The notes under the pieces: generated by a model
What the model was told of the DNA's origin: nothing
The model's database searches: none
Seen by the model: the letters and a program-made list of their open reading frames with translations, nothing else
Translations under genes and position numbers: made by a program
In this document: positions 31,658 to 42,969 of the stretch, in pieces
Layout of the letters: the number at the start of each line of letters is the position of its first letter
Numbering within the stretch: position 1 is the stretch's first letter
Source of the DNA: a virus
Virus genome (UHGV): UHGV-0172637
Length of the DNA: 43,019 nt
Strand: one strand, 5' to 3'

Positions 31658-32005
31658 ATGGCGATCGAGCATTTTGCGTGGCGGATTAAAGCATCCAGCC
31701 AGCCGACCCTGAAAAGTAAGGATAACATCCGTACGGCGCAGTTTGGTGATGGCTATAAGCAGGTGTCAGGTGCCGGGCTGAATGATGAAACACTCAGCTA
31801 TGAGTTCTCGTTTACCGGCGAACCGGGAACCGTCAAGGATATCTATGTTTTCCTGCGGCGCCATAAGACGAAATCATTTTCGTTTACCCCGCCTGGCGGT
31901 GATCTTGCGCTGTGGCGCGTTGAGGCAGACAGCCTGCAGCGCGTCACCAAAAGTAAAACGGTGGAAACCGTATCAGCCACCTTTGAACAGGCGTTTGCAC
32001 CATGA
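31658..32005 (+). CDS. M: Minor tail protein M
   Basis: 115 aa; FGDGY motif and position as lambda gpM. Confidence 0.85.
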   Translation: MAIEHFAWRIKASSQPTLKSKDNIRTAQFGDGYKQVSGAGLNDETLSYEFSFTGEPGTVKDIYVFLRRHKTKSFSFTPPGGDLALWRVEADSLQRVTKSKTVETVSATFEQAFAP

Positions 32006-32757
32006 GCTTAAACAGTGATTATCAGAAACTTGAGCCGGGCAATGTTGTCCGGCTTTTTGATGTCGATGGCACCGCATTTGGTGTTTCCGACGTTCTCCGC
32101 TTCCACGCCCACAATATTGCCCACACTGCCGATGAAATCGTCGCTGCTGGTGGAGATGAAAATAAGCTACCGGCGAAATCGATCTGGTGGCAGGGACAGG
32201 AATATAAAGCCTGGCCCTGCCAGATAGAGGGTATTGAGACGGCGACCGACGGGACTAGCGCGCAGCCAACGCTCTCGGTCGCTAACCTGGATAGTTCCAT
32301 TACGGCGCTGTGTCTTGTTTATGATGACCTGCTGCAGGCGAAGGTCACCATTCATGACACGCTGGCGCAGTATCTGGATGCGGAAAACTATCCGGAGGGT
32401 AACCCGTCGGCGGATCCTCAGCAGGAAAAGCTGAAGGTGTTTTACATAGACGCCAAGAGCACTGAAACCAACGAAGTGGTGGCGTTTACGTTGTCCAGCC
32501 CGATGGACCTGCAGGGGCTGATGATTCCGACACGCCAGCTACATTCGCTTTGTACCTGGTGTATCCGTAACAAATACCGCTCCGGAGATGGATGCGACTA
32601 TGCCGGGACGCGCTATTTCGACAAGCACAACAACCCGGTTAACGATCCGTCGCTCGATAAATGCCCCGGTACGCTCACTGCGTGCAAGTTGCGACATGGC
32701 GAGGGGAACGAGTTGCCGTTCGGTGGTTTTCCGGGCACATCCCTGATCAGGAGCTGA
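32002..32757 (+). CDS. L: Minor tail protein L
   Basis: 251 aa; C-terminal Cys cluster (CTWC...C...C) as in lambda gpL. Confidence 0.85.
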   Translation: MSLNSDYQKLEPGNVVRLFDVDGTAFGVSDVLRFHAHNIAHTADEIVAAGGDENKLPAKSIWWQGQEYKAWPCQIEGIETATDGTSAQPTLSVANLDSSITALCLVYDDLLQAKVTIHDTLAQYLDAENYPEGNPSADPQQEKLKVFYIDAKSTETNEVVAFTLSSPMDLQGLMIPTRQLHSLCTWCIRNKYRSGDGCDYAGTRYFDKHNNPVNDPSLDKCPGTLTACKLRHGEGNELPFGGFPGTSLIRS

Positions 32758-32758
32758 T

Positions 32759-33469
32759 ATGCGTCAGAAAATTATCGACGCCATTATGGCGCATGCTGCC
32801 GCTGAATATCCGCGGGAGAGCTGCGGTGTGGTGGTACAAAAAAGCAGGGTGCAGCGATACATACCCTGCCGCAATCTGGCAACCGATCCGACAGAGCATT
32901 TCCACCTGTCACCGGAGGATTACGCCGCTGCTGAAGACTGGGGTACGGTGATTGCCATTGTCCACAGTCACCCGGATGCCACGACGCAGCCAAGCGAACT
33001 GGATAAAGCGCAATGCGATGCAACGCTCTTACCCTGGCACATCGTGAGTTGGCCGGAGGGTGATCTGCGTACCATCCAGCCGCGGGGAGAGCTGCCGCTA
33101 CTGGAGCGCCCGTTTGTGCTCGGTCACTTCGATTGCTGGGGGCTGGTGATGAGTTACTTCAGGCAGACGCATGGTATTGAACTGAAGGATTACCGCGTCG
33201 ATTATCCCTGGTGGGAAGACAGTTACCCCGAAAACTTCTACCACGATTGCTGGTATGAATGCGGCTTCCGTGAATTCAGCGGCGCACCGCAGCCAGGTGA
33301 TATGGTTATCATGCAGGTCCAGTCCAACAAGTGGAACCATGCCGGTATCCTGTTAGAAGGTAACATGCTACTGCATCACCTTTACGGGCATCTTAGCCAG
33401 CGCGTTCCTTATGGTGGCTACTGGCAGGAACGAACAATGAAGGTTCTACGGCATGAGGCTCTGTGTTAA
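32759..33469 (+). CDS. K: Tail assembly protein K (JAB/MPN + NlpC/P60-like)
   Basis: HSHP JAB-type motif (IAIVHSHPDA) and Cys/His peptidase-like C-terminal half; lambda K position. Confidence 0.85.
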   Translation: MRQKIIDAIMAHAAAEYPRESCGVVVQKSRVQRYIPCRNLATDPTEHFHLSPEDYAAAEDWGTVIAIVHSHPDATTQPSELDKAQCDATLLPWHIVSWPEGDLRTIQPRGELPLLERPFVLGHFDCWGLVMSYFRQTHGIELKDYRVDYPWWEDSYPENFYHDCWYECGFREFSGAPQPGDMVIMQVQSNKWNHAGILLEGNMLLHHLYGHLSQRVPYGGYWQERTMKVLRHEALC

Positions 33470-33500
33470 CCTTTTACAATATCAAAAAGGGGATAGGGAC

Positions 33501-33836
33501 ATGAAAAGAGCCATATTATTTATTTCTTTATTGGGTTTATTTGGTTGTAGTGCATCTTCCTTGCAGGAAGAATCTCCAATTTATTCAGGGCATTCATTAA
33601 AGAGTGCTTCACAAATTAATAAGTGCTTATCGCCTAAATGGCAGGATCTACATCCACAGGCAACAAGTATAGAAACCGAAGCTGGTTATAGAATATCAGC
33701 ATCTGATGATTTATTTGGTGTTTTATCGATGGCTATAATAGAGGGGAACCCAAATGGTGGGGCTGATGTGAAAGTCTATGCCGCAAGTAAAGGTATTGGT
33801 GATCCATGGGGTAAAGCTGCGCGTTCCTGTATTTAA
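33501..33836 (+). CDS. Small lipoprotein, accessory gene inserted between tail genes K and I
   Basis: 111 aa; signal peptide with lipobox LFGC (MKRAILFISLLGLFGCSAS); visibly AT-rich; own terminator downstream. Confidence 0.65.
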   Translation: MKRAILFISLLGLFGCSASSLQEESPIYSGHSLKSASQINKCLSPKWQDLHPQATSIETEAGYRISASDDLFGVLSMAIIEGNPNGGADVKVYAASKGIGDPWGKAARSCI

Positions 33837-33854
33837 GTCGATTCTAATCTTCAA

Positions 33855-33877
33855 AGCCACTTTATGTGGCTTTTTTA
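33855..33877 (+). terminator. Rho-independent terminator after lipoprotein gene
   Basis: AGCCAC-TTTAT-GTGGCT stem-loop followed by TTTTTT. Confidence 0.7.
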
Positions 33878-33888
33878 TTGGAGTTAAC

Positions 33889-34491
33889 ATGCAAGAAGTA
33901 ATGACCAGGATTGAACTTGGTGGGGTTTTAGGTAAATCATTTGGCCGCTCTCATAACAGATTAATAAGAACAACGGCCGAAGCCATTAACGCTTTATCAA
34001 AAACAATAAATGGATTTGAACAGTATTTAAATACCAGCAAAATGCGAGGGCTTACGTATGCAGTATTTAAAGGTAAAAAAAATCTTGGGAAAGATGATTT
34101 AGGTTTTCCCGTTACAGGTGAAGTGATACGAATCGTTCCTATCGTGATTGGGAGTAAAAAAGCAGGTTTACTTCAAACAATCTTAGGGGGCGTACTGGTG
34201 GTAATTGGTGCGTTGGGGGCAACAATAGGCCAGGCATGGGGTGGTGCCGCATGGGGGCCAGCTGCAATGAAAATTGGTGCGGCAATGGCGCTTGGCGGTG
34301 TTATACAAATGCTCTCACCGCAACCATCCGGCATAGCCAGCAAGCAAAGTGCAGATAACCGGGCTTCGTATGCGTTCGGAGGCGTAACTAATACAGCTGC
34401 GCAGGGGTATCCAGTTCCTCTTTTATACGGTCAGCGACGTATTGGTGGCGCTATCATATCGGCAGGTATTTATGTTGAAGATCAGCAATAA
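33889..34491 (+). CDS. I: Tail assembly protein I
   Basis: Start at ATG 33889 after the terminator (track start 33778 runs through the hairpin); Gly/Ala-rich hydrophobic C-terminal half as in lambda gpI. Confidence 0.8.
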   Translation: MQEVMTRIELGGVLGKSFGRSHNRLIRTTAEAINALSKTINGFEQYLNTSKMRGLTYAVFKGKKNLGKDDLGFPVTGEVIRIVPIVIGSKKAGLLQTILGGVLVVIGALGATIGQAWGGAAWGPAAMKIGAAMALGGVIQMLSPQPSGIASKQSADNRASYAFGGVTNTAAQGYPVPLLYGQRRIGGAIISAGIYVEDQQ

Positions 34492-34545
34492 CCATGTTGT
34501 AATTACGCTATAGGTAATAAGCCTAATATCAAGGTGATAGGGTAT

Positions 34546-35262
34546 ATGAAGAAATTATATGTTTTGTTACTCAGTACAGTTTTGATTTCTGGGATGAGTC
34601 ACGCCGAAAATGGTTATATTCCTGTATTATATAATCTATCAACTATGTTCGATTTTAATCCTGTTAAAGGACCAGTGAAATCACTTAGTACTATAGTGGA
34701 GAGTAATGGCAAGGTTACTTATAAAGTATTATTAAAGCTAAATAAAAAAGGTTGTATTGAAAGCCTGAGCTTGGATAATATTTCAAATGGCTTTAAAACA
34801 GAACTTAATAATGATGGGGTAAATCTTGTAGGCAAGAGAGGTGAAAACCCGTACTTTGTTGGTCTAACGGAAGATTGTAATATTCTTTCTCAGAATGATA
34901 ATGGTGAGAAAAATACATTCTCTCTCACAGCAAGTGGAATGATTAAAGATACTTATTATTTAGGCCAAAAAATAGCAACGCATTTTTATGATGATAATGA
35001 TAATTTAATACGCTCTGAGTTTTATGGCTCAGATAAAATTTTGTCCAGTAATGAAGTTATTTATTTAGATAAAAATACTAAACCTCTTGACTACAAGATT
35101 ATAAACGAAAGTAGCTATGCACAAGGATATACTGCTACAACAACTTGTAAATACAACGCGAAACTTGTTCCAGAGTTATGTAATCTGATAATACAGAATG
35201 CAGGGAATCCGCTTCCTAAACCGACAGTAATTACAGCACATACAAGCGTGGAATTTTATTAA
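34546..35262 (+). CDS. Secreted hypothetical protein, AT-rich accessory gene between tail genes I and J
   Basis: 238 aa; Sec signal peptide MKKLYVLLLSTVLISGMSHA; Asn/Lys/Tyr-rich; ends in aromatic residue; own terminator. Confidence 0.65.
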   Translation: MKKLYVLLLSTVLISGMSHAENGYIPVLYNLSTMFDFNPVKGPVKSLSTIVESNGKVTYKVLLKLNKKGCIESLSLDNISNGFKTELNNDGVNLVGKRGENPYFVGLTEDCNILSQNDNGEKNTFSLTASGMIKDTYYLGQKIATHFYDDNDNLIRSEFYGSDKILSSNEVIYLDKNTKPLDYKIINESSYAQGYTATTTCKYNAKLVPELCNLIIQNAGNPLPKPTVITAHTSVEFY

Positions 35263-35281
35263 ATATCCACCTTCATATATA

Positions 35282-35304
35282 CCGCCTACGGGCGGTTTTT
35301 TTAT
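35282..35304 (+). terminator. Rho-independent terminator after secreted accessory gene
   Basis: CCGCC-TAC-GGGCGG stem-loop followed by TTTTTTT. Confidence 0.75.
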
Positions 35305-35313
35305 GGGCGCGAA

Positions 35314-38300
35314 ATGGCTAAAGCAACCCTTATCAAAGGCCGCAAGGGCGGCAGTTCCAGTTCCCGAACCCCAACCGAACAGCCAGATGATCTGCAATCT
35401 GTAGCGAAGGCTAAAATTCTCGTTGCGCTTGGTGAAGGGGAGTTTGCAGGGAAATTAACCGGAAAAAATATCTATCTGGACGGCACGGCGTTGGAAAACC
35501 CCGACGGCTCCCAAAACTTTAGCGGCGTGACGTGGGAGTTTCGCGCGGGAACGCAGGCACAAAATTACATTCAGGGCATTCCCGGTACCGAAAACGAAAT
35601 CAATGTTGGAACTGAAGTATCAAGCGCTACTGCCTGGACGCGCACCTTCACCAACACCCAACTATCAGCCGTTCGCCTGCGACTGAAATGGCCTTCACTG
35701 TTTAAGCAAGAGGACAACGGCGATCTGGTAGGGTATTCCATCAATTATGCGATAGACCTGCAGACTGATGGTGGGACCTGGCAAACCGTTCTTAATACCA
35801 GCGTAACCGGCAAAACGACGTCTGGTTATGAGCGCAGCCACCGTATTGATTTACCGCAGGCTGGCAGCACCTGGACAATCCGACTGCGTAAGATTACCGC
35901 TGACGCAAACAGCGCCAAGATCGGCGACACGATGACGCTGCAAAGCTTCACGGAAGTGATTGATGCCAAGCTGCGCTATCCGAACACCGCGCTGCTGTAC
36001 ATCGAATTCGACTCGAGTCAGTTTAATGGTTCAATACCCCAGATCTCCTGTGAGCCTCGCGGGCGCGTGATCCGTGTTCCTGATAATTACGACCCTGAAA
36101 CGAGGGCTTACAGCGGTACATGGCAGGGCGCGTTTAAGTGGGCCTGGACTGATAACCCGGCGTGGATATTTTACGATCTGGTGATTACCGATCGCTTTGG
36201 TCTGGGTAATCGCCTGACTGCAGCCAACATTGATAAATGGACGTTGTACCAGGTTGCCCAGTATTGCGATCAGCCGGTACCGGATGGAAAAGGTGGAAGC
36301 GGGACAGAACCACGCTATACCTGTAACGTCTATGTTCAGGAGAGGAATGACGCTTACACTGTGCTGCGTGACTTTGCGGCTATATTCCGGGGTATGACGT
36401 ACTGGGGCGGCGATCAGATTGTGGCCCTGGCTGACATGCCGAGAGATGTGGATTACGCTTACACTCGCGCTAACGTTATCGACGGACGCTTTACCTATTC
36501 CAGCAGTACAACAAAAACGCGCTATACAACAGCGCTGGTTTCCTGGTCTGATCCGGGTAACGCCTATGCGGATGCGATGGAGCCAGTGTTTGAGCAGCCT
36601 CTGGTGGCGCGGTACGGATTTAATCAGCTGGAAATGACAGCCATCGGCTGTACCAGGCAGTCAGAAGCTAACCGAAAGGGGCGCTGGGGCATTCTCACCA
36701 ACAACAAGGATCGCGTTGTTTCTTTTGATGTCGGGCTGGACGGAAACATTCCGCAGCCGGGCTACATCATCGCCGTGGCAGACGAGCTGCTTTCCGGAAA
36801 GGTTATGGGTGGCCGCATCAGCGCCGTTAACGGTCGCGTGATTAAACTTGACCGAGTGGCGGATGCAGTAGCAGGTGATCGCCTTATTCTCAACCTTCCC
36901 TCCGGTGCGTCACAGAGCAGGACCATTCAGGCCGTGAACGGGGAATCAGTCACAGTCACCACTGCGTACAGTGAGACGCCGCAGGCCGAAGCTGTTTGGG
37001 TGGTTGAATCGGACGAGCTTTACGCGCAGCAGTATCGTGTTGTCAGCGTCTCCGATAATAATGATGGTACTTTCTCTATTACCGGGGCATGGCACGATCC
37101 GGATAAATATGCCCGTATCGATACCGGAGCCATCATTGACCAGCGGCCAGTGAGTGTGATCCCGCCGGGTAACCAGTCGCCGCCAGCCAACATTGTGATC
37201 AGTTCATTTTCAGTGGTTCAGCAAAATATCAGCGTTGAGACTATGCGGGTGAGCTGGGACCAGGCGCAGAACTCCATCGCCTACGAGGCACAGTGGCGCC
37301 GCAATGATGGTAACTGGGTAAACGTGCCGCGCAGCTCCACCAACTCATTTGATGTATCGGGTATTTATGCAGGGCGCTACCTCGTGCGTGTGCGTGCCAT
37401 TAATGCCGCTGAAATATCCTCTGGCTGGGGCTACTCCGAAGAGAAAACGCTGACGGGTAAGGTGGGAAATCCGCCGAAACCTGTCGGCTTTGCGACAACA
37501 CCGATTAACTGGGGCATTCGTCTGAACTGGGGATTCCCGGCTAACACCGGGGATACACTGAAAACGGAAATTCAGTACACCGCGAACAGTGATTTCTCAA
37601 ATCCTCTTTTGCTGTCGGATGTGCCTTATCCTTCTGCTGAATACACTCAACTGGGATTAAAAGCGGGGCAGGAATTCTGGTACCGTGCGCAGCTGGTAGA
37701 CAGAACGGGTAATGAGTCAGGCTGGACTGACTGGGTTCGTGGTGAATCTAATGCGAATGCTGACGACTACCTGGGCGATATTGCTGATGACTTCCTGACT
37801 TCTGCCGACGGTAACCGCCTGACAAGCGATATTGATACCAACCTCGAAGCCGCATTGCAGAATGCGCTGGCAAACCATGCAACCGCGGAACACCAGTGGG
37901 CGCAGTACGGCGAAGTACGCGCGGATATTCTGGTAATTAAAACGACGGTCGCCAGTGTGGATAAGGCGATGGCTGAGCTGTCTACGCAGGTACAGGCACA
38001 GATTGAAGATGTGACAGCTTCACTCGAGGACAAACTGACCGCTACTGTCGATGCTTCGGGGGCTACAGCCATTCATACCCTGAAAGCCGGAGTGCGCATC
38101 AACGGTATTTTTTACAATGCCGGGATGTCGATTGCGGTGCTGGCCGAATCAGGTAAGCCGGTAGTAACCCGTGTCGGGTTTAACGCCAACCAGTTCGTCC
38201 TGATGAGTGGCAGCGGTGATACGCAGTATTCTCCTTTTGCTGTTATCAATGGTCAGGTATTTATTAGCGATGCGTTTATTCAGGATGGCAGCATTACCAA

Positions 38301-38517
38301 TGCCAAAATTGGTAATTTTATCCAGTCGAATAACTTCGTTGCGGGTTCAGCAGGCTGGCGCATTGATAAAGATGGAAACGCTGAATTACATGGCAAACTT
38401 TACGCTGACAGTGGCCAGTTTGCATTTAATGGCACCAATAACACTGTCGTCATCAACGGGAATGGGCTGACGGTCAATTTGTCCGGTGGTGGTAGGGTTG
38501 TAGTCGGGAGGTGGTGA
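35314..38517 (+). CDS. J: Central tail fiber / host specificity protein J
   Basis: 1067 aa; size, position after I and fibronectin-III-like central region consistent with lambda gpJ family. Confidence 0.85.
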   Translation: MAKATLIKGRKGGSSSSRTPTEQPDDLQSVAKAKILVALGEGEFAGKLTGKNIYLDGTALENPDGSQNFSGVTWEFRAGTQAQNYIQGIPGTENEINVGTEVSSATAWTRTFTNTQLSAVRLRLKWPSLFKQEDNGDLVGYSINYAIDLQTDGGTWQTVLNTSVTGKTTSGYERSHRIDLPQAGSTWTIRLRKITADANSAKIGDTMTLQSFTEVIDAKLRYPNTALLYIEFDSSQFNGSIPQISCEPRGRVIRVPDNYDPETRAYSGTWQGAFKWAWTDNPAWIFYDLVITDRFGLGNRLTAANIDKWTLYQVAQYCDQPVPDGKGGSGTEPRYTCNVYVQERNDAYTVLRDFAAIFRGMTYWGGDQIVALADMPRDVDYAYTRANVIDGRFTYSSSTTKTRYTTALVSWSDPGNAYADAMEPVFEQPLVARYGFNQLEMTAIGCTRQSEANRKGRWGILTNNKDRVVSFDVGLDGNIPQPGYIIAVADELLSGKVMGGRISAVNGRVIKLDRVADAVAGDRLILNLPSGASQSRTIQAVNGESVTVTTAYSETPQAEAVWVVESDELYAQQYRVVSVSDNNDGTFSITGAWHDPDKYARIDTGAIIDQRPVSVIPPGNQSPPANIVISSFSVVQQNISVETMRVSWDQAQNSIAYEAQWRRNDGNWVNVPRSSTNSFDVSGIYAGRYLVRVRAINAAEISSGWGYSEEKTLTGKVGNPPKPVGFATTPINWGIRLNWGFPANTGDTLKTEIQYTANSDFSNPLLLSDVPYPSAEYTQLGLKAGQEFWYRAQLVDRTGNESGWTDWVRGESNANADDYLGDIADDFLTSADGNRLTSDIDTNLEAALQNALANHATAEHQWAQYGEVRADILVIKTTVASVDKAMAELSTQVQAQIEDVTASLEDKLTATVDASGATAIHTLKAGVRINGIFYNAGMSIAVLAESGKPVVTRVGFNANQFVLMSGSGDTQYSPFAVINGQVFISDAFIQDGSITNAKIGNFIQSNNFVAGSAGWRIDKDGNAELHGKLYADSGQFAFNGTNNTVVINGNGLTVNLSGGGRVVVGRW

Positions 38518-38518
38518 T

Positions 38519-39463
38519 ATGCCGGAGGGGATATTAATCGACTATAACGATGGCCGTCCGGTGATGGCAATTACTGCGGGGTTGCGAGCGCCGAGTTTTT
38601 GTACATCGTTCTCGGGCTGGTCATCCCAGTTCATGCAGTACCCGGTCAATACGCCACTTGTTCCAGGTTCACAGGTTATCGTGGTGCCAACCAATCCCAT
38701 TTACATCTATTCCTTTGCTGAATTCGACGTGGCCATTATGACAGGAGTCACCCGCAACGGTAATTCCGGGATAATTATCGGGGCTGAGACAATCGGGGGT
38801 AAATCCCTCACTCCGGACTGGTCAGGCTACGTTATGGAGCTGCTGCCAGCGGCGACCTATAACGAAGGATTACTGGTTTCAAACTCGACTGACTTCACCG
38901 CCATATCCAATCAGGCCGCGCTGATGACCTGCGCTTACTCCGGACGTATTACGGTTAGCGGCAGCGCGCCGCTTCCGGTGAGCGGTATTCCTTTCGGCAA
39001 ATGGGATAACCCGAATGTGTCGGTGGGGTTTGATGGCACCAGTATCATCGTTCGCGATATTTCCTACACAGGGCGGGACGACGTGGCCGGAACGGCAACG
39101 ATAGACCTGGTGATATTCAATCAGACCGCACCAGTTGGCGGTGACGGTATCACGATGACCAACGCCGCAGGCCAGGTAACATTCTCCACGCTGAAACGCC
39201 CCTTTGTGTATGACCGACAAATCCAGATCACCGATGCCTTTCAGGATATTGGCGGTGGGTTCTGCCAGATAGTCTATACCGGCGTTCAGGTACGAATGAT
39301 TGGTGGATGGGGAAATATCAGAACCAAAGGTGTGGTCATGTCAGGCGGTAGCGTCAGGTCAGCCTACAACAAAGTATTTGCGGACCGCAATTCTGGCGCA
39401 TGGGATATGACCCGAAACAGAAATATCGCCATGCCCATTCTTATTCTTCCGAACATGTACTGA
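38519..39463 (+). CDS. Hypothetical tail-associated protein downstream of J
   Basis: 314 aa, start overlaps J stop (translational coupling); no motif recognised. Confidence 0.5.
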   Translation: MPEGILIDYNDGRPVMAITAGLRAPSFCTSFSGWSSQFMQYPVNTPLVPGSQVIVVPTNPIYIYSFAEFDVAIMTGVTRNGNSGIIIGAETIGGKSLTPDWSGYVMELLPAATYNEGLLVSNSTDFTAISNQAALMTCAYSGRITVSGSAPLPVSGIPFGKWDNPNVSVGFDGTSIIVRDISYTGRDDVAGTATIDLVIFNQTAPVGGDGITMTNAAGQVTFSTLKRPFVYDRQIQITDAFQDIGGGFCQIVYTGVQVRMIGGWGNIRTKGVVMSGGSVRSAYNKVFADRNSGAWDMTRNRNIAMPILILPNMY

Positions 39464-39472
39464 GGAAAGCCC

Positions 39473-40717
39473 ATGTCAGCAGGAACGTTAACCCTTAACA
39501 ATAACTCAGCCTCGGTTGCCGGAACTGACACCACTTTCACCACTGAGTTAGCTGCAGGTGATTTTATTGTGGTTGTCGTGGGTGGTGTGCCTTACACACT
39601 TCCCGTACTGGAAGTTAACAGCAATACACGGCTGACGCTGGTCAGTAATTACACCGGACCGCGAGCGACCGGGGCTGCCTGGTCTGCCGTTCCCCGCGTG
39701 GCGCTGAATATGGTTACCGCGGCGCTGGTGGCCCAGAGTGCTGAGGCGCTTCGGGGTCTGAACTACGACAAACAGAACTGGCAGCGGGTATTCAGTGGTA
39801 CCGGAACTATCACCGTCAGGTTGCCTGACGGGACAACATTCAGCGGCCCTGCGTGGAACAGTATTGTTCAGACGCTTGCAGGCAAGGCTGACCTGGTCAG
39901 CGGCGTGGTGTCAAAAATGCAGGGTGGGACAGGGTTATCCAGTCCCTTTGGCGCCGGGGCCGGTTCTTTCTGTGAGGGGAATGATGTCCGCCTTAACACT
40001 ATCGGCGGCAAATCCGGAGGCCAGATAACCAGCCCGTTTGGCAAGGTCAACGCATTGCCGGGGAGCTTTGACTCCCTCTATGCCGGAAACCGCAACTACG
40101 GTCTCTACCAGGAACAGATGAATGTACTCGGTGCAGGTTATCTGTATCCGCACATGAGTTTCAAGATGTACTGGCCAGGTCATTACGGCGGGGTGTTTAC
40201 ATGGTCTGCATGGGCAAATGACATGAATCCGGAGTATGTTCTCTCCTGGACAACGGAGGTGGGAACCACGCCGCACATGTGGCGGTTTAATGGCACTAAT
40301 GGTAACGCCACAGCTACCGGAAACTGGGTTAACGGCGGCTCGACTGTCAAAATTAAGGAAAAAGTCGAAGACATCCAGAATCCGCGCGAAACGATGCGGA
40401 TAATCCGCGCATGCACCTGGCGACTGAAAACGAAAAATGCTGACGGACGTTTCGGCATCGGTGTTCTGGCTGAAGGGCTATATGAAGCGTACCCGGAGGC
40501 GAAAGTCACAGCCGGTGATATCGAACTACGGGACGGGACTGTTGTTAAGGATGCCTTATCTGTACAGGCTGGCGATTCCGGCGTACTGGCCGCTGTTCAC
40601 CACGCAACCATTATTTCTCTGATGGATGAAAACGAAGCACAGCAGAAAGAAATCAATCAACTGAAAGCAGACATGGAGGCGCTGAAGAAAATTGTTGAAC
40701 AACTCGCCGCCAGATAA
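39473..40717 (+). CDS. Side tail fiber protein with C-terminal intramolecular chaperone-like domain
   Basis: N-terminus MSAGTLTLNNNSASVAGTDTTFTTELAAGDF typical of enterobacterial prophage tail fibers; C-terminal segment ending in coiled coil QQKEINQLKADMEALKKIVEQLAAR. Confidence 0.7.
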   Translation: MSAGTLTLNNNSASVAGTDTTFTTELAAGDFIVVVVGGVPYTLPVLEVNSNTRLTLVSNYTGPRATGAAWSAVPRVALNMVTAALVAQSAEALRGLNYDKQNWQRVFSGTGTITVRLPDGTTFSGPAWNSIVQTLAGKADLVSGVVSKMQGGTGLSSPFGAGAGSFCEGNDVRLNTIGGKSGGQITSPFGKVNALPGSFDSLYAGNRNYGLYQEQMNVLGAGYLYPHMSFKMYWPGHYGGVFTWSAWANDMNPEYVLSWTTEVGTTPHMWRFNGTNGNATATGNWVNGGSTVKIKEKVEDIQNPRETMRIIRACTWRLKTKNADGRFGIGVLAEGLYEAYPEAKVTAGDIELRDGTVVKDALSVQAGDSGVLAAVHHATIISLMDENEAQQKEINQLKADMEALKKIVEQLAAR

Positions 40718-41165: not shown

Positions 41166-41894
41166 CTAATGTTTGTCCGATGATGTGAGTTGCTGCAAAC
41201 ATATATGTTCAGGATGCGGCCTGGATGCTATTTTTTTCCCTGAAGCGGAAAACATTACTACTGTACCTTTAACCCTGGTTTTAACATTCTCGAAATGCTC
41301 TGAAAGTATTTGTTTTAACCCTTCTTTGGAATCTTCGGTGTTTGAAAAGATGCCTTTCTGATTGTATATGCTCATCAGTTTTTTACCGAAGGTATTATGC
41401 ACAACGCCATCACCAACAATTGTGGCGCCATACAGAGTACCATCGTCAGTTAAGGCCTGCGCCGCATTGCGTATTACACAGGTTTTTGTCGATATATTTC
41501 CAGGCAGGCAGTGAAGAAGGTAAAACATTGAAATGGAATCAAATTGACCATGCAATGCTGCGGGATAAGGTTCAAAAACATCATGGCAAATTTTATGTTG
41601 AATTTTTGACTTTCCAGCCCTTGTTGATGCAGCGTTCAGGCTAGCTTCGTTCAAATCCATTAGAGATTTCAAACCACTTTCAGGTACGTGAGTAAGGTAA
41701 AACCCAGTTCCAACACCAATATCCAGATGGTTGTTACCTAAATGTTCCAGAAAGTGTGGAAGAAGGTATTCCTTTGTAGGGCATCCCCATGCAAGTCGAT
41801 TTGATACACCCAAAACCCACCAGTCATAAAGTTTTAGTGTGAATGGTGTGTAAACTTTAGCCCCATCATCTGTGTTTTTTTTCATTAATTTCAC
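41166..41894 (-). CDS. Class I SAM-dependent methyltransferase (small-molecule/protein type, not an obvious DNA MTase)
   Basis: Motif I LDIGVGTGFY; 242 aa; AT-rich 5' half. Confidence 0.6.
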   Translation of the reverse strand: MKLMKKNTDDGAKVYTPFTLKLYDWWVLGVSNRLAWGCPTKEYLLPHFLEHLGNNHLDIGVGTGFYLTHVPESGLKSLMDLNEASLNAASTRAGKSKIQHKICHDVFEPYPAALHGQFDSISMFYLLHCLPGNISTKTCVIRNAAQALTDDGTLYGATIVGDGVVHNTFGKKLMSIYNQKGIFSNTEDSKEGLKQILSEHFENVKTRVKGTVVMFSASGKKIASRPHPEHICLQQLTSSDKH

Positions 41895-42300: not shown

Positions 42301-42969
42301 TCATATTGGCGTTATTAGTTCGGCCCCCTGATTTTTCACATTCCCAACGGCACGCGTTACGGCGTGCCATATAAATTTATCAGCCGGCACAACACCGTCG
42401 GCTGCAATTTCCGCTGCTTCTTTCCCTCCAACATCCTGCCTCATCCATTCGCGCGCGGCTTCCGGTAGCAGTATCAGCGGTCGTCTGTCGTGAATATCAA
42501 CCAGTCCTTTGTCAGCTGCAGCTGTAACTATCAGGAAACCTTCTGCTTCATCTCCACGTTCAAATGGTGTGCTGCCAATCGCCGCCATAAATATCGGCTG
42601 ACCATCGGCCCGATGAATGAAGTAAGGCTGCTTCGTGTCACCTTCCTTTTTCCATTCGTACCATCCATCAGCAAAGCAAATTGCACGACCGTGCTGCCAG
42701 AGTGGTTTAAACATTCTGCTGGTGGCCGCAGTTTCAGATCGAGCATTAATTAGCGGTGGCTTATCCCACCATCCAGGGGCATATCCCCAAATGACAGGGT
42801 CAAGGTGCAGTTGTTCATCACGTTCGCTCAGAAGCAAAACTTTTGTTCCTGGCGCTACGTTGAATCTTCCGATGGGTTCTGGATCGTATGGAATGTCGCG
42901 TTCTGATTCATCAGCGAGCAGGGCAAGATAATCTTCACGCGTCATTGACTGTGCAAAGCGTCCACACAT
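42301..42969 (-). CDS. SOS response-associated peptidase (SRAP/YedK family)
   Basis: 222 aa beginning MCGRF (catalytic Cys2), conserved SRAP signature throughout. Confidence 0.85.
   Translation of the reverse strand: MCGRFAQSMTREDYLALLADESERDIPYDPEPIGRFNVAPGTKVLLLSERDEQLHLDPVIWGYAPGWWDKPPLINARSETAATSRMFKPLWQHGRAICFADGWYEWKKEGDTKQPYFIHRADGQPIFMAAIGSTPFERGDEAEGFLIVTAAADKGLVDIHDRRPLILLPEAAREWMRQDVGGKEAAEIAADGVVPADKFIWHAVTRAVGNVKNQGAELITPI

What the first reader, a model, noticed from the sequence alone, without database searches (positions are those of the whole stretch)
33501..33877. Lipoprotein moron inserted between tail genes K and I
A small AT-rich lipoprotein gene (lipobox LFGC) with its own terminator interrupts the otherwise lambda-collinear K-I junction. 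Small lipoproteins within tail-gene clusters, such as Cor and Llp, act as receptor-blocking superinfection-exclusion factors, so a similar role is plausible.
Basis: partly seen in the sequence, partly recalled or inferred. Interest (0 to 1): 0.55.

Follow-up and report, generated by a model that had tools for sequence, protein, structure and literature searches.

The report
Lipoprotein gene cassette in phage tail cluster
A prophage, probably from Citrobacter, carries a small outer-membrane lipoprotein gene with its own terminator between tail genes K and I, in a slot that related phages fill with many unrelated envelope-protein genes, including the known exclusion factor Cor, so it probably protects against phage infection, though this is untested.

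Summary
Window 33501-33836 (+) is a real 111-aa gene. It has a lipoprotein signal peptide (lipobox LFGC, Cys16) and low GC (0.39 against 0.55 in K), and an intrinsic terminator follows at 33853-33873. It lies between the lambda-like tail genes K and I, which abut in phage N15.

The protein belongs to PHROG 914 (function unknown). This is the family of phiKO2 Gp19, annotated there as a "putative moron". It is small (69 clusters at 50% identity) and under purifying selection (dN/dS about 0.12-0.15). A confident model shows a TBP-like alpha/beta domain. It is not homologous to Cor or Llp.

Of 80 viral contigs with a K at least 89% identical, 77 carry an insert in this slot. The gene just before I falls into at least 14 unrelated families, almost all lipoproteins or membrane/secreted proteins. 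One is a true Cor homologue. Most cassettes have their own terminator, and about 40% share a leader sequence.

A superinfection-exclusion or receptor-masking role is therefore plausible by position but unproven. Cassette family and receptor-binding module assort independently, and no own promoter was found. The kind is known; the family and fold are uncharacterised.

The parts
32759..33469 (+). Left flank: tail assembly gene K (236 aa, Prok-JAB + NlpC/P60 domains). Its 3' end and stop codon form the conserved left border of the slot.
   Evidence: Pfam PF14464 E 9e-22 and PF00877 E 6.7e-22; PHROG 30. The K 3' end and stop are conserved in the window, mEp390, LMessi and phiKO2.
33485..33500 (+). 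Conserved cassette leader and ribosome-binding region, AAAGGGGATAGGGAC, directly before the ATG.
   Evidence: GATAGGG-N2-3-ATGA occurs only twice in the window, at the starts of the two inserted genes; 0.02 expected. The same leader precedes 31 of 75 slot genes in relatives, across at least 3 unrelated protein families. It is also conserved in mEp390 and LMessi ahead of different lipoprotein genes.
33501..33548 (+). Signal peptide with lipobox: residues 1-16, MKRAILFISLLGLFGC, with Cys16 as the lipidation site.
   Evidence: The L-x-G-C lipobox is conserved in 57 of 58 family members. The +2 residue is S/A/T and others, never Asp. 19 of 58 members hit Pfam LPAM_1.
33501..33836 (+). Lipoprotein gene, 111 aa including the signal peptide; the end coordinate includes the stop codon. 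PHROG 914 family. The mature domain of 95 aa (Cys16-Ile111) has conserved K34, C42 and C110.
   Evidence: PHROG 914 full-length match, E 6.2e-20. Homologues. Invariant residues. AF2 model pLDDT 88.5, order beta-alpha-beta4-alpha. dN/dS 0.12-0.15. GC 0.387.
33853..33879 (+). Intrinsic terminator: stem-loop AAAGCCAC-TTTAT-GTGGCTTT followed by a T-run, ending 10 nt before the start of I.
   Evidence: Scan hit with 8 pairs. The 57-nt region 33834-33890 folds at -19.8 kcal/mol, z -5.38. A hairpin plus T-run follows 23 of 27 distinct family members, with different stem sequences, and most other slot families.
33889..34491 (+). Right flank: tail assembly gene I (200 aa). Its first ~285 nt (33889-34173) are part of the AT-rich tract (GC 0.37 against 0.525 for the rest).
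   Evidence: Pfam PF06805 E 3.1e-8; PHROG 32 E 6e-72. GC values. The I 5' part is AT-rich in every related locus with an occupied slot (0.33-0.46) and 0.51-0.52 in the 3 loci without an insert.
34492..35295 (+). Second cassette, in the I-J slot. It holds the same leader motif (34533-34549), a YnfC/UPF0257-like secreted protein gene (34546-35262, 238 aa, no lipobox Cys) and a terminator (35281-35296). GC is 0.32.
   Evidence: Pfam PF06788 E 2.4e-22; NCBIfam YnfC E 1e-22, below its cut-off. Insertion borders come from comparison with L022 and L027. Terminator; leader.

Best explanation
This is an accessory, non-structural gene cassette of a lambda-like prophage, probably from Citrobacter. It has three parts: a conserved ribosome-binding leader, a gene for a small lipoprotein, and an intrinsic terminator.

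Inferred pathway of the protein:
- It is exported and lipidated at Cys16.
- Because residue +2 is Ser, the Lol pathway should sort it to the inner leaflet of the outer membrane.
- There a 95-residue alpha/beta domain, probably locked by a C42-C110 disulfide, faces the periplasm.

Most likely role: it works like the known phage exclusion lipoproteins Cor, Llp and Rtp45. It would dock on the periplasmic side of an outer-membrane component and make the cell, and the debris left after lysis, refractory to adsorption or DNA entry by phages.

What is shown: the gene, its signal peptide, the terminator, the fold, the purifying selection, and the slot with its other occupants. What is inferred: lipidation, localisation, the target, and the exclusion phenotype.
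For: - The gene and lipobox are conserved.
- No family member has Asp at +2.
- Two further Cys are invariant.
- The model is a confident, compact domain.
- dN/dS is 0.12-0.15, against 0.04-0.06 for K, L, I and the J N-terminal part. The gene is functional but evolves 3-4 times faster, as expected for an accessory gene.
- It is dispensable for the tail. K and I abut in N15 and in 3 of 80 relatives, and unrelated genes replace it in others.
- The gene just before I is almost always an envelope protein: at least 14 families, mostly lipoproteins.
- One of these is a true Cor homologue.
- Terminators with different stems are kept after the cassette in 23 of 27 family members and in most other slot families. 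This only makes sense for transcripts that are not antiterminated, which suggests expression outside the late programme.
- Published precedent: periplasmic outer-membrane lipoproteins Llp (on FhuA) and Rtp45 (on LptDE) block receptor-binding proteins from the periplasmic side (PMC9586334, PMC12685063). Lipoproteins encoded in coliphage tail clusters exclude phages when expressed from a plasmid (PMC11893012).
Against: - There is no experimental test of any family member; sources name them 'hypothetical protein' or 'lipoprotein'.
- It is not homologous to Cor, Llp, mEp021 Lpp021 or the mEp390 lipoprotein beyond the signal peptide.
- It has no PADLOC match.
- The cassette family is not linked to the receptor-binding module. 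This family occurs with J proteins of 1051-1641 aa, with or without DUF6453, and the window's own distal module also occurs with other cassette families.
- No sigma-70-like promoter lies upstream. There is only a weak TACAAT, not conserved in relatives, so expression in the lysogen is unproven.
- One Pseudomonas homologue sits in a non-phage chromosomal context.
Confidence: 0.45

Rival explanations
1. Lysogenic-conversion fitness factor unrelated to phage exclusion. An outer-membrane lipoprotein that changes host envelope properties (serum or stress resistance, adhesion, permeability), as lambda Bor does, and is kept because it benefits the lysogen.
For: - Other occupants of the same or the neighbouring slot are copies of host envelope protein families: YecR-like and YebO-like in the K-I slot and YnfC-like in the I-J slot.
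- The best fold match is a Francisella virulence-associated lipoprotein, Flpp3.
- A chromosomal, non-phage homologue exists in Pseudomonas.
- The cassette family is independent of the receptor-binding module.
- All phages that carry it in the phage database are temperate-type.
Against: - No own promoter was detected, so expression in the lysogen is unproven.
- Every phage-borne context examined, in enterobacteria, Pseudomonas and a non-lambda tail type, lies inside the tail-tip gene cluster next to I or J. That is where known exclusion genes sit.
- A Cor homologue uses the same slot.
Confidence: 0.25
2. Exclusion at a step that does not depend on the receptor. The lipoprotein blocks the periplasmic stage of infection by lambda-like tail tips, for example passage or channel formation by the tape-measure protein, or local peptidoglycan opening. 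This would be broadly analogous to T4 Sp or HK97 gp15 rather than to Cor or Llp.
For: - The family is independent of the receptor-binding module but tightly linked to the conserved tail-tip genes I and J over wide divergence. Lip is 25-48% identical from Serratia and Pseudomonas phages to a DUF1833-type tail module.
- Its divergence roughly tracks that of K, I and J.
- The mature domain is larger and differently folded than the ~6-kDa receptor jammers.
Against: - This is purely inferential; no interaction partner is known.
- Linkage to I and J can be explained by inheritance of an old insertion plus cassette exchange between conserved flanks.
- The fibre C-termini, the true receptor-binding parts, lay outside most fetched loci, so the independence test is incomplete.
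Confidence: 0.15
3. A function in the phage's own late cycle. Either an inhibitor or immunity protein for the NlpC/P60 peptidase domain of the neighbouring K protein, or a helper of lysis or tail assembly.
For: - The gene lies directly after an NlpC/P60-domain gene in most loci, including the non-lambda tail type.
- It sits within the late operon without a recognisable promoter of its own.
Against: - In several relatives 0.7-4 kb of other genes separate it from K while it stays next to I.
- It is replaced by unrelated proteins, or absent, in phages with nearly identical K.
- A periplasmic lipoprotein cannot take part in cytoplasmic tail assembly.
- The window has separate lysis genes elsewhere, and this protein does not resemble a spanin.
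Confidence: 0.05

Closest known systems
Klebsiella phage phiKO2 Gp19 (YP_006599.1) and PHROG 914
   Same: Same protein family (44% identity over the full length; PHROG 914 E 6e-20), same K-I position and a downstream terminator. The phiKO2 record already labels it 'putative moron gene product'. Further members lie in the same place in Escherichia phages Fraca and LMessi and in Serratia phage OS31.
   Different: Nothing of substance. The window copy is a divergent member whose closest match is a Citrobacter braakii prophage (99% protein identity). No member has a tested function.
Cor superinfection-exclusion lipoproteins (N15 gp24, phi80, T1; PHROG 1119)
   Same: A small phage-encoded outer-membrane lipoprotein with an intramolecular Cys pair, encoded in the tail-tip and host-recognition region. 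A Cor homologue occupies exactly this K-I slot in a relative (L087).
   Different: - No homology. With the signal peptide removed, the profile comparison scores 13.1 against 8.9 +/- 2.0 for shuffles.
- Cor's mature part is about 60 aa, against 95 aa here.
- In N15, cor lies downstream of J.
- Cor is tied to FhuA-using phages, whereas this family is not tied to any receptor-binding module.
T5 Llp and Rtp Rtp45 (structurally characterised exclusion lipoproteins)
   Same: The proposed way of working is the same: a periplasm-facing outer-membrane lipoprotein binds the periplasmic face of FhuA or LptDE and rearranges extracellular loops so the phage receptor-binding protein cannot bind (PMC9586334, PMC12685063).
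mEpimmI coliphage lipoproteins Lpp021 and Lpp010
   Same: Lipoproteins encoded within a lambda-like tail gene cluster whose L, K, I and J are related to the window's. They have been shown to exclude phages when expressed from a plasmid (PMC11893012).
   Different: Different family: only the signal peptide aligns. Lpp021 is 72 aa and lies downstream of J on the opposite strand. In mEp021, K and I are contiguous.
Francisella Flpp3 / DUF3568 and other TBP-like lipoprotein domains (BamC N-terminal domain)
   Different: 8% sequence identity and no Pfam DUF3568 hit. Flpp3 is a chromosomal virulence-associated protein. The fold is widespread and carries no specific function.
Lambda and HK97 morons (Bor; HK97 gp15, gp22/gp23)
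   Same: An AT-rich extra gene with a terminator inserted between conserved late genes. HK97 has annotated morons in the neighbouring I-J slot and a terminator in its K-I gap.
   Different: The defining own promoter is not evident here. The slot shows systematic cassette replacement with a shared leader sequence.

Membership tests
Bacterial lipoprotein (signal peptidase II substrate) | N-terminal signal peptide with a positively charged n-region, a hydrophobic core and a lipobox [LVI]-x-[GAS]-C within about 15-35 residues | tested here: met
   MKRAILFISLLGLFGC has K2/R3, a hydrophobic core and L-F-G-C16. The lipobox Cys is conserved in 57 of 58 aligned members. 19 of 58 members match Pfam LPAM_1.
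Bacterial lipoprotein (signal peptidase II substrate) | Actual lipidation and Lsp processing; outer-membrane sorting | not testable with these tools
   Only the sorting rule could be applied. Residue +2 is Ser here and never Asp in 57 members, which predicts outer-membrane localisation in enterobacteria.
Moron (independent transcription unit added between conserved phage genes) | Inserted between two genes that are adjacent in related phages | tested here: met
   K and I abut in N15 and in 3 of 80 related contigs, with a gap of 8 nt.
Moron (independent transcription unit added between conserved phage genes) | Nucleotide composition different from the surrounding genes | tested here: met
   GC 0.387 against 0.55 (K) and 0.53 (J). 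The AT-rich tract also covers the first 285 nt of I.
Moron (independent transcription unit added between conserved phage genes) | Own transcription terminator | tested here: met
   Terminator at 33853-33873 plus a T-run; the surrounding 57-nt region folds at -19.8 kcal/mol, z -5.4. It is conserved in 23 of 27 distinct family members, with different stems.
Moron (independent transcription unit added between conserved phage genes) | Own promoter | tested here: inconclusive
   No + strand sigma-70-like site with at least 9 of 12 matches lies upstream. The relaxed scan finds only TACAAT (33475-33480) with a 3/6 -35 element. The TACAAT is not conserved in mEp390 or LMessi. Needs RNA-seq or 5'-RACE.
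PHROG 914 (phage protein family of unknown function) | Full-length match to the family profile | tested here: met
   E 6.2e-20, residues 1-111 on profile positions 1-118 of 118.
Cor superinfection-exclusion family (PHROG 1119) | Sequence homology to Cor | tested here: not met
   No PHROG 1119 hit. hhalign aligns only residues 1-32, the signal peptide plus a short motif. The mature-only comparison scores 13.1 against shuffles of 8.9 +/- 2.0, maximum 15.2.
Cor superinfection-exclusion family (PHROG 1119) | Inactivation of the FhuA receptor and exclusion of FhuA-dependent phages | not testable with these tools
   Needs plating and adsorption assays.
T5 Llp family | Sequence or fold similarity to Llp (PDB 8a60 chain B) | tested here: not met
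DUF3568 / Flpp3-like lipoproteins | Pfam profile match and shared fold | tested here: inconclusive
Known anti-phage defence systems (PADLOC-DB) | Match to any defence-system protein model | tested here: not met
   0 families at E up to 1.

The most novel reading that the evidence does not exclude
The position just upstream of tail gene I in HK97/N15-like tail modules may be a dedicated exchange site for envelope-effector cassettes. Each cassette would consist of a shared leader (AAAGGGGATAGGGAT-ATG), one lipoprotein or membrane-protein gene and a terminator. Cassettes would be swapped by recombination between the K 3' end and leader on the left and the AT-rich 5' part of I on the right.

The 14 or more unrelated cargo families, including this one, would then be a largely unexplored reservoir of phage-exclusion factors. 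PHROG 914 would be a new structural class of these (a ~10-kDa TBP-like domain) that acts independently of the phage's own receptor-binding protein, for instance on a conserved periplasmic step of DNA entry.
Probability: 0.15. Interest if true: 0.65.

Novelty: new variant of a known kind. Interest (0 to 1): 0.4.

Why it matters
If the protein does exclude phages, it adds a new and structurally different family to the few characterised exclusion lipoproteins (Cor, Llp, Rtp45, Lpp021/Lpp010). Its target could reveal another outer-membrane or periplasmic weak point in siphovirus infection.

The wider pattern is practical. The K-I slot could be mined as a positional marker for new envelope-acting phage-resistance genes in enterobacterial and Pseudomonas prophages, which matters for predicting phage-therapy failure in lysogens.

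If the protein is instead a host-fitness factor, the result is ordinary: one more lysogenic-conversion lipoprotein.

Tried and rejected
- Homology to Cor. The apparent similarity (hhalign probability 88%) comes from the signal peptide plus a short LEKQxPxxxG-like stretch. Without the signal peptide it falls within the range of shuffled controls. Rejected.
- Homology to Llp, mEp021 Lpp021, the mEp390 lipoprotein and all 13 other slot families. Only signal peptides align, or nothing does.
- Pfam, NCBIfam and PADLOC give no family for the protein. Scanning 58 relatives gave only weak DUF6491 hits in 8 of them (best E 0.016), not pursued.
- Test for linkage between cassette family and receptor-binding module. 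No linkage was found. Clustering wrongly merged two families through their signal peptides and was redone on mature parts. The fibre C-termini lie beyond most fetched loci, so the test is incomplete.
- Promoter search with standard and relaxed criteria: nothing convincing.
- Rfam scan and repeat search of 32700-35500: no RNA family, and no flanking repeats that would point to transposition.
- Megablast of the LMessi K-I region against 5,426 complete E. coli genomes: no match.
- The phiKO2 genome paper could not be read. The Salmonella prophage transcriptome paper held nothing on this slot.
- HK97's 320-nt K-I gap has no + strand ORF of 40 aa or more, so I make no claim that HK97 encodes a slot protein.

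Full report
**1. What is in the sequence**

The window carries a lambda-like late operon in lambda order: tape-measure gene, M (31658-32005), L (32002-32757), K (32759-33469; Prok-JAB + NlpC/P60), I (33889-34491; Lambda_tail_I) and J (35314-38517). An integrase gene lies at the left end.

Between K and I lies an ORF at 33501-33836 (+). It encodes 111 aa starting MKRAILFISLLGLFGC. It is preceded by AAAGGGGATAGGGAC. It is followed by an 8-bp GC-containing hairpin at 33853-33873 with a T-run. The 57-nt region containing the hairpin folds at -19.8 kcal/mol (z -5.4), and none of 200 shuffles folds as well.

Two refinements apply:
- The AT-rich tract continues through the first ~285 nt of I (GC 0.37, against 0.525 for the rest of I).
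- A second insert lies between I and J (34492-35295, GC 0.32). It encodes a YnfC/UPF0257-like secreted protein and has its own terminator.

The closest genome match is a prophage of Citrobacter braakii ATCC 51113, 96% identical over 32167-37363.

**2. Is it a real gene, and what kind of protein is it?**

It matches PHROG 914 (function unknown) over its full length, E 6e-20. Pfam, NCBIfam and PADLOC give nothing.

Close relatives (66-98% identity) come from Citrobacter, Atlantibacter, Trabulsiella and Enterobacter. An exhaustive profile search of 1.84 billion representative proteins found only 69 clusters, nearly all 105-120 aa.

Conserved features:
- the lipobox Cys, in 57 of 58 aligned members;
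- Lys34, in at least 90% of the 58;
- Cys42 and the penultimate Cys110, both invariant, which suggests a disulfide;
- no Asp at position +2 in any member, which predicts outer-membrane sorting.

Pairwise dN/dS is 0.12-0.15. That is purifying selection, but 3-4 times more relaxed than in L, K, I and the J N-terminal part (0.04-0.06).

AlphaFold2 with a 58-sequence alignment gives a confident model (pLDDT 88.5, pTM 0.77) with the order beta-alpha-beta4-alpha.

**3. Genomic context of relatives**

In the phage database, homologues occur in four phages: Klebsiella phiKO2, Escherichia phages Fraca and LMessi, and Serratia OS31. In each the gene lies between K and I. The phiKO2 record already calls its Gp19 a "putative moron gene product" with a putative terminator.

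In 30 IMG/VR contigs with 68-99% identical proteins the gene lies close upstream of I, typically about 50 nt away. In L037 one small ORF intervenes, and in L044 and L047 about 130 nt do. In five loci (four of these contigs and L015), 0.7-4 kb of other genes separate it from K. These include antirepressor-like, KilA-N and Arc-like genes.

The same position before I is seen in Pseudomonas prophages at 35-41% identity.

Members at about 25% identity lie between a short NlpC/P60 gene and J in a different siphovirus tail type (DUF1833-type, no I). Another lies between tape-measure fragments and J.

One Pseudomonas homologue is chromosomal, with no phage genes nearby.

The hairpin plus T-run after the gene is kept in 23 of 27 distinct 3' regions, with different stem sequences.

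**4. The slot rather than the gene**

I fetched 80 viral contigs whose K is at least 89% identical to the window's.
- Only 3 have K and I adjacent; one of them has the length of N15.
- The other 77 carry at least 321 nt in between.

The gene immediately before I falls into at least 14 families with no detectable homology to one another or to this one:

| Family | Loci |
|---|---|
| This family (PHROG 914) | 29 |
| 136-aa lipoprotein, PHROG 890 (as in mEp390) | 20 |
| 115-aa signal-peptide protein | 5 |
| 131-aa lipoprotein | 4 |
| 74-aa YebO-like membrane protein | 4 |
| 203-aa lipoprotein | 3 |
| YecR-like lipoprotein | 3 |
| 146-aa lipoprotein | 2 |
| 77-aa membrane protein | 2 |
| Singletons | several |

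One singleton (L087) is a true Cor protein. It is 61% identical to N15 Cor (E 1e-35) and matches PHROG 1119 "Cor superinfection exclusion protein".

Most of these cassettes end in their own hairpin terminator just before the I ribosome-binding site.

Many start with the same leader. GATAGGG-N2-3-ATGA occurs exactly twice in the 43-kb window, at the starts of the two inserted genes, where 0.02 is expected. The leader precedes 31 of 75 slot genes in relatives, across at least three unrelated families.

The 5' 285 nt of I is AT-rich (0.33-0.46) in every locus with an occupied slot. It is 0.51-0.52 in the three loci without an insert, although the encoded I domain is about 70% identical in all.

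So the site is a cassette position for envelope proteins. In this lineage an occupied slot is the norm.

**5. How it most likely works**

Three lines of evidence support the leading explanation:
- The protein itself is predicted to be an outer-membrane, periplasm-facing, disulfide-stabilised small domain.
- Its slot-mates are all envelope proteins, and one is a proven exclusion factor.
- Published work shows that such lipoproteins block phages from the periplasmic side of their receptor: Llp on FhuA (PMC9586334) and Rtp45 on LptDE (PMC12685063). Other tail-cluster lipoproteins exclude phages when expressed from a plasmid (PMC11893012).

The authors who described the Pseudomonas phage AH14a lipoprotein gene just before gene I proposed the same idea for it, also without a test (PMC4936722).

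The leading explanation is therefore an exclusion or receptor-masking lipoprotein. It would protect the lysogen, protect progeny from adsorbing to debris, or both.

The conserved terminators argue that non-antiterminated transcripts cross the cassette, that is, that it is expressed outside the late programme. No promoter could be recognised, however.

**6. Evidence that weakens the simple Cor/Llp analogy**

- The family is unrelated to Cor, Llp and Lpp021.
- Its mature part is about 50% larger and folded differently.
- It is not linked to the receptor-binding module. It occurs with J proteins of 1051 to 1641 aa, with or without the DUF6453 + fibre module. The window's own distal module (DUF6453 at least 94% identical) also occurs with other cassette families.
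- That test is incomplete, because the fibre C-termini lie outside most fetched loci.
- It leaves room for a target independent of the phage's own receptor, or for a host-fitness role as with lambda Bor. The presence of host-like envelope families in these slots (YecR, YebO, YnfC) fits the fitness reading too.

**7. Novelty and verdict**

- The kind of element is known: an accessory lipoprotein gene in a tail cluster, flagged as a moron in phiKO2 and speculated to be Cor-like in AH14a.
- The family has no tested function, a fold not seen among known exclusion lipoproteins, and a small but wide phage distribution.
- The comparative picture of the slot was not described in the papers I found and read. 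It comprises near-universal occupancy, at least 14 envelope-protein families including Cor, a shared leader, private terminators and a linked AT-rich 5' part of I.
- I rate this a new variant of a known kind, of moderate interest (0.4). Simple plating and adsorption experiments would decide the question.

Noticed in passing
window 34492-35295 (ORF 34546-35262; terminator 35281-35296): A second AT-rich cassette (GC 0.32) sits between I and J. It encodes a YnfC/UPF0257-like protein whose signal peptide ends LISGM-SHA, so it lacks the lipobox Cys of YnfC lipoproteins and is probably a soluble periplasmic protein. It is present only in the closest relatives (L005, L018, L019, L021, C. braakii L132) and absent from L022, whose lipoprotein is 96% identical.
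   Followed up: partly
window 33489-33504 and 34533-34549; related loci L018-L129: The motif GG(G/T)GATAGGG-N2-3-ATGA occurs exactly twice in the window, at the start codons of the two inserted genes; 0.02 expected. The same leader precedes 31 of 75 slot genes in relatives, across unrelated protein families. It may be a shared translation-initiation region or a recombination junction for cassette exchange.
   Followed up: partly
window 33889-34173 (5' part of gene I); 78 related loci: The first 285 nt of gene I are AT-rich (0.33-0.46) in every locus whose K-I slot is occupied, whatever the cassette family. They are 0.51-0.52 in the three loci without an insert. The encoded domain is about 70% identical in all. 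Unexplained.
   Followed up: partly
L087 (IMGVR_UViG_3300011855_000004), K-I slot: A true Cor superinfection-exclusion homologue (61% identical to N15 Cor; PHROG 1119) sits in the K-I slot of a phage whose K is 92% identical to the window's. In N15, cor lies downstream of J.
   Followed up: yes
L085/L086/L106 and L109/L113/L121, K-I slot: Other relatives carry copies of host envelope protein families in the slot: a YecR-like lipoprotein (Pfam PF13992, E 6e-21) and a YebO-like small membrane protein (PF13974, E 2e-12).
   Followed up: partly
window 35314-40717: J is short (1067 aa) and ends with the Phage_Tail_Tip domain. It is followed by a DUF6453 protein (38519-39463) and a 414-aa protein with weak matches to the endosialidase-chaperone (Peptidase_S74) domain (39473-40717). 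The receptor-binding part is therefore probably a separate distal module rather than the J C-terminus.
   Followed up: partly
L002 (Fraca), L003 (LMessi), L077, L125: Some relatives hold two lipoprotein genes in tandem in the K-I slot: a 115-122-aa PHROG 2320 lipoprotein followed by a PHROG 914 member.
   Followed up: partly
L015, L023, L025, L041, L045, L061, L064, L070, L071: In several relatives a 0.7-4 kb block of regulatory-type genes (Arc-like, KilA-N, ORF6N and antirepressor-like) is also inserted after K and ahead of the lipoprotein gene. The K-I junction thus accepts larger cargo too.
   Followed up: no
L130 (HK97, NC_002167 13513-13833): HK97 has a 320-nt K-I gap with an annotated terminator but no + strand ORF of 40 aa or more. 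It may be the remnant of a decayed cassette. Its I-J slot holds the annotated morons gp22 and gp23.
   Followed up: partly
literature: Pseudomonas phages AH14a/AH14b (PMC4936722): The reported satellite prophage AH14b carries a tail-assembly-I gene next to a lipoprotein gene although it lacks other structural genes. This gene pairing is worth a look, given how tightly the lipoprotein gene is linked to gene I here.
   Followed up: no
window 41166-41894 (-) and 42301-42969 (-): The right end of the window encodes a SAM-dependent methyltransferase-like protein and an SRAP (SOS-response-associated peptidase) protein on the minus strand. They may be prophage cargo or flanking host genes.
   Followed up: no
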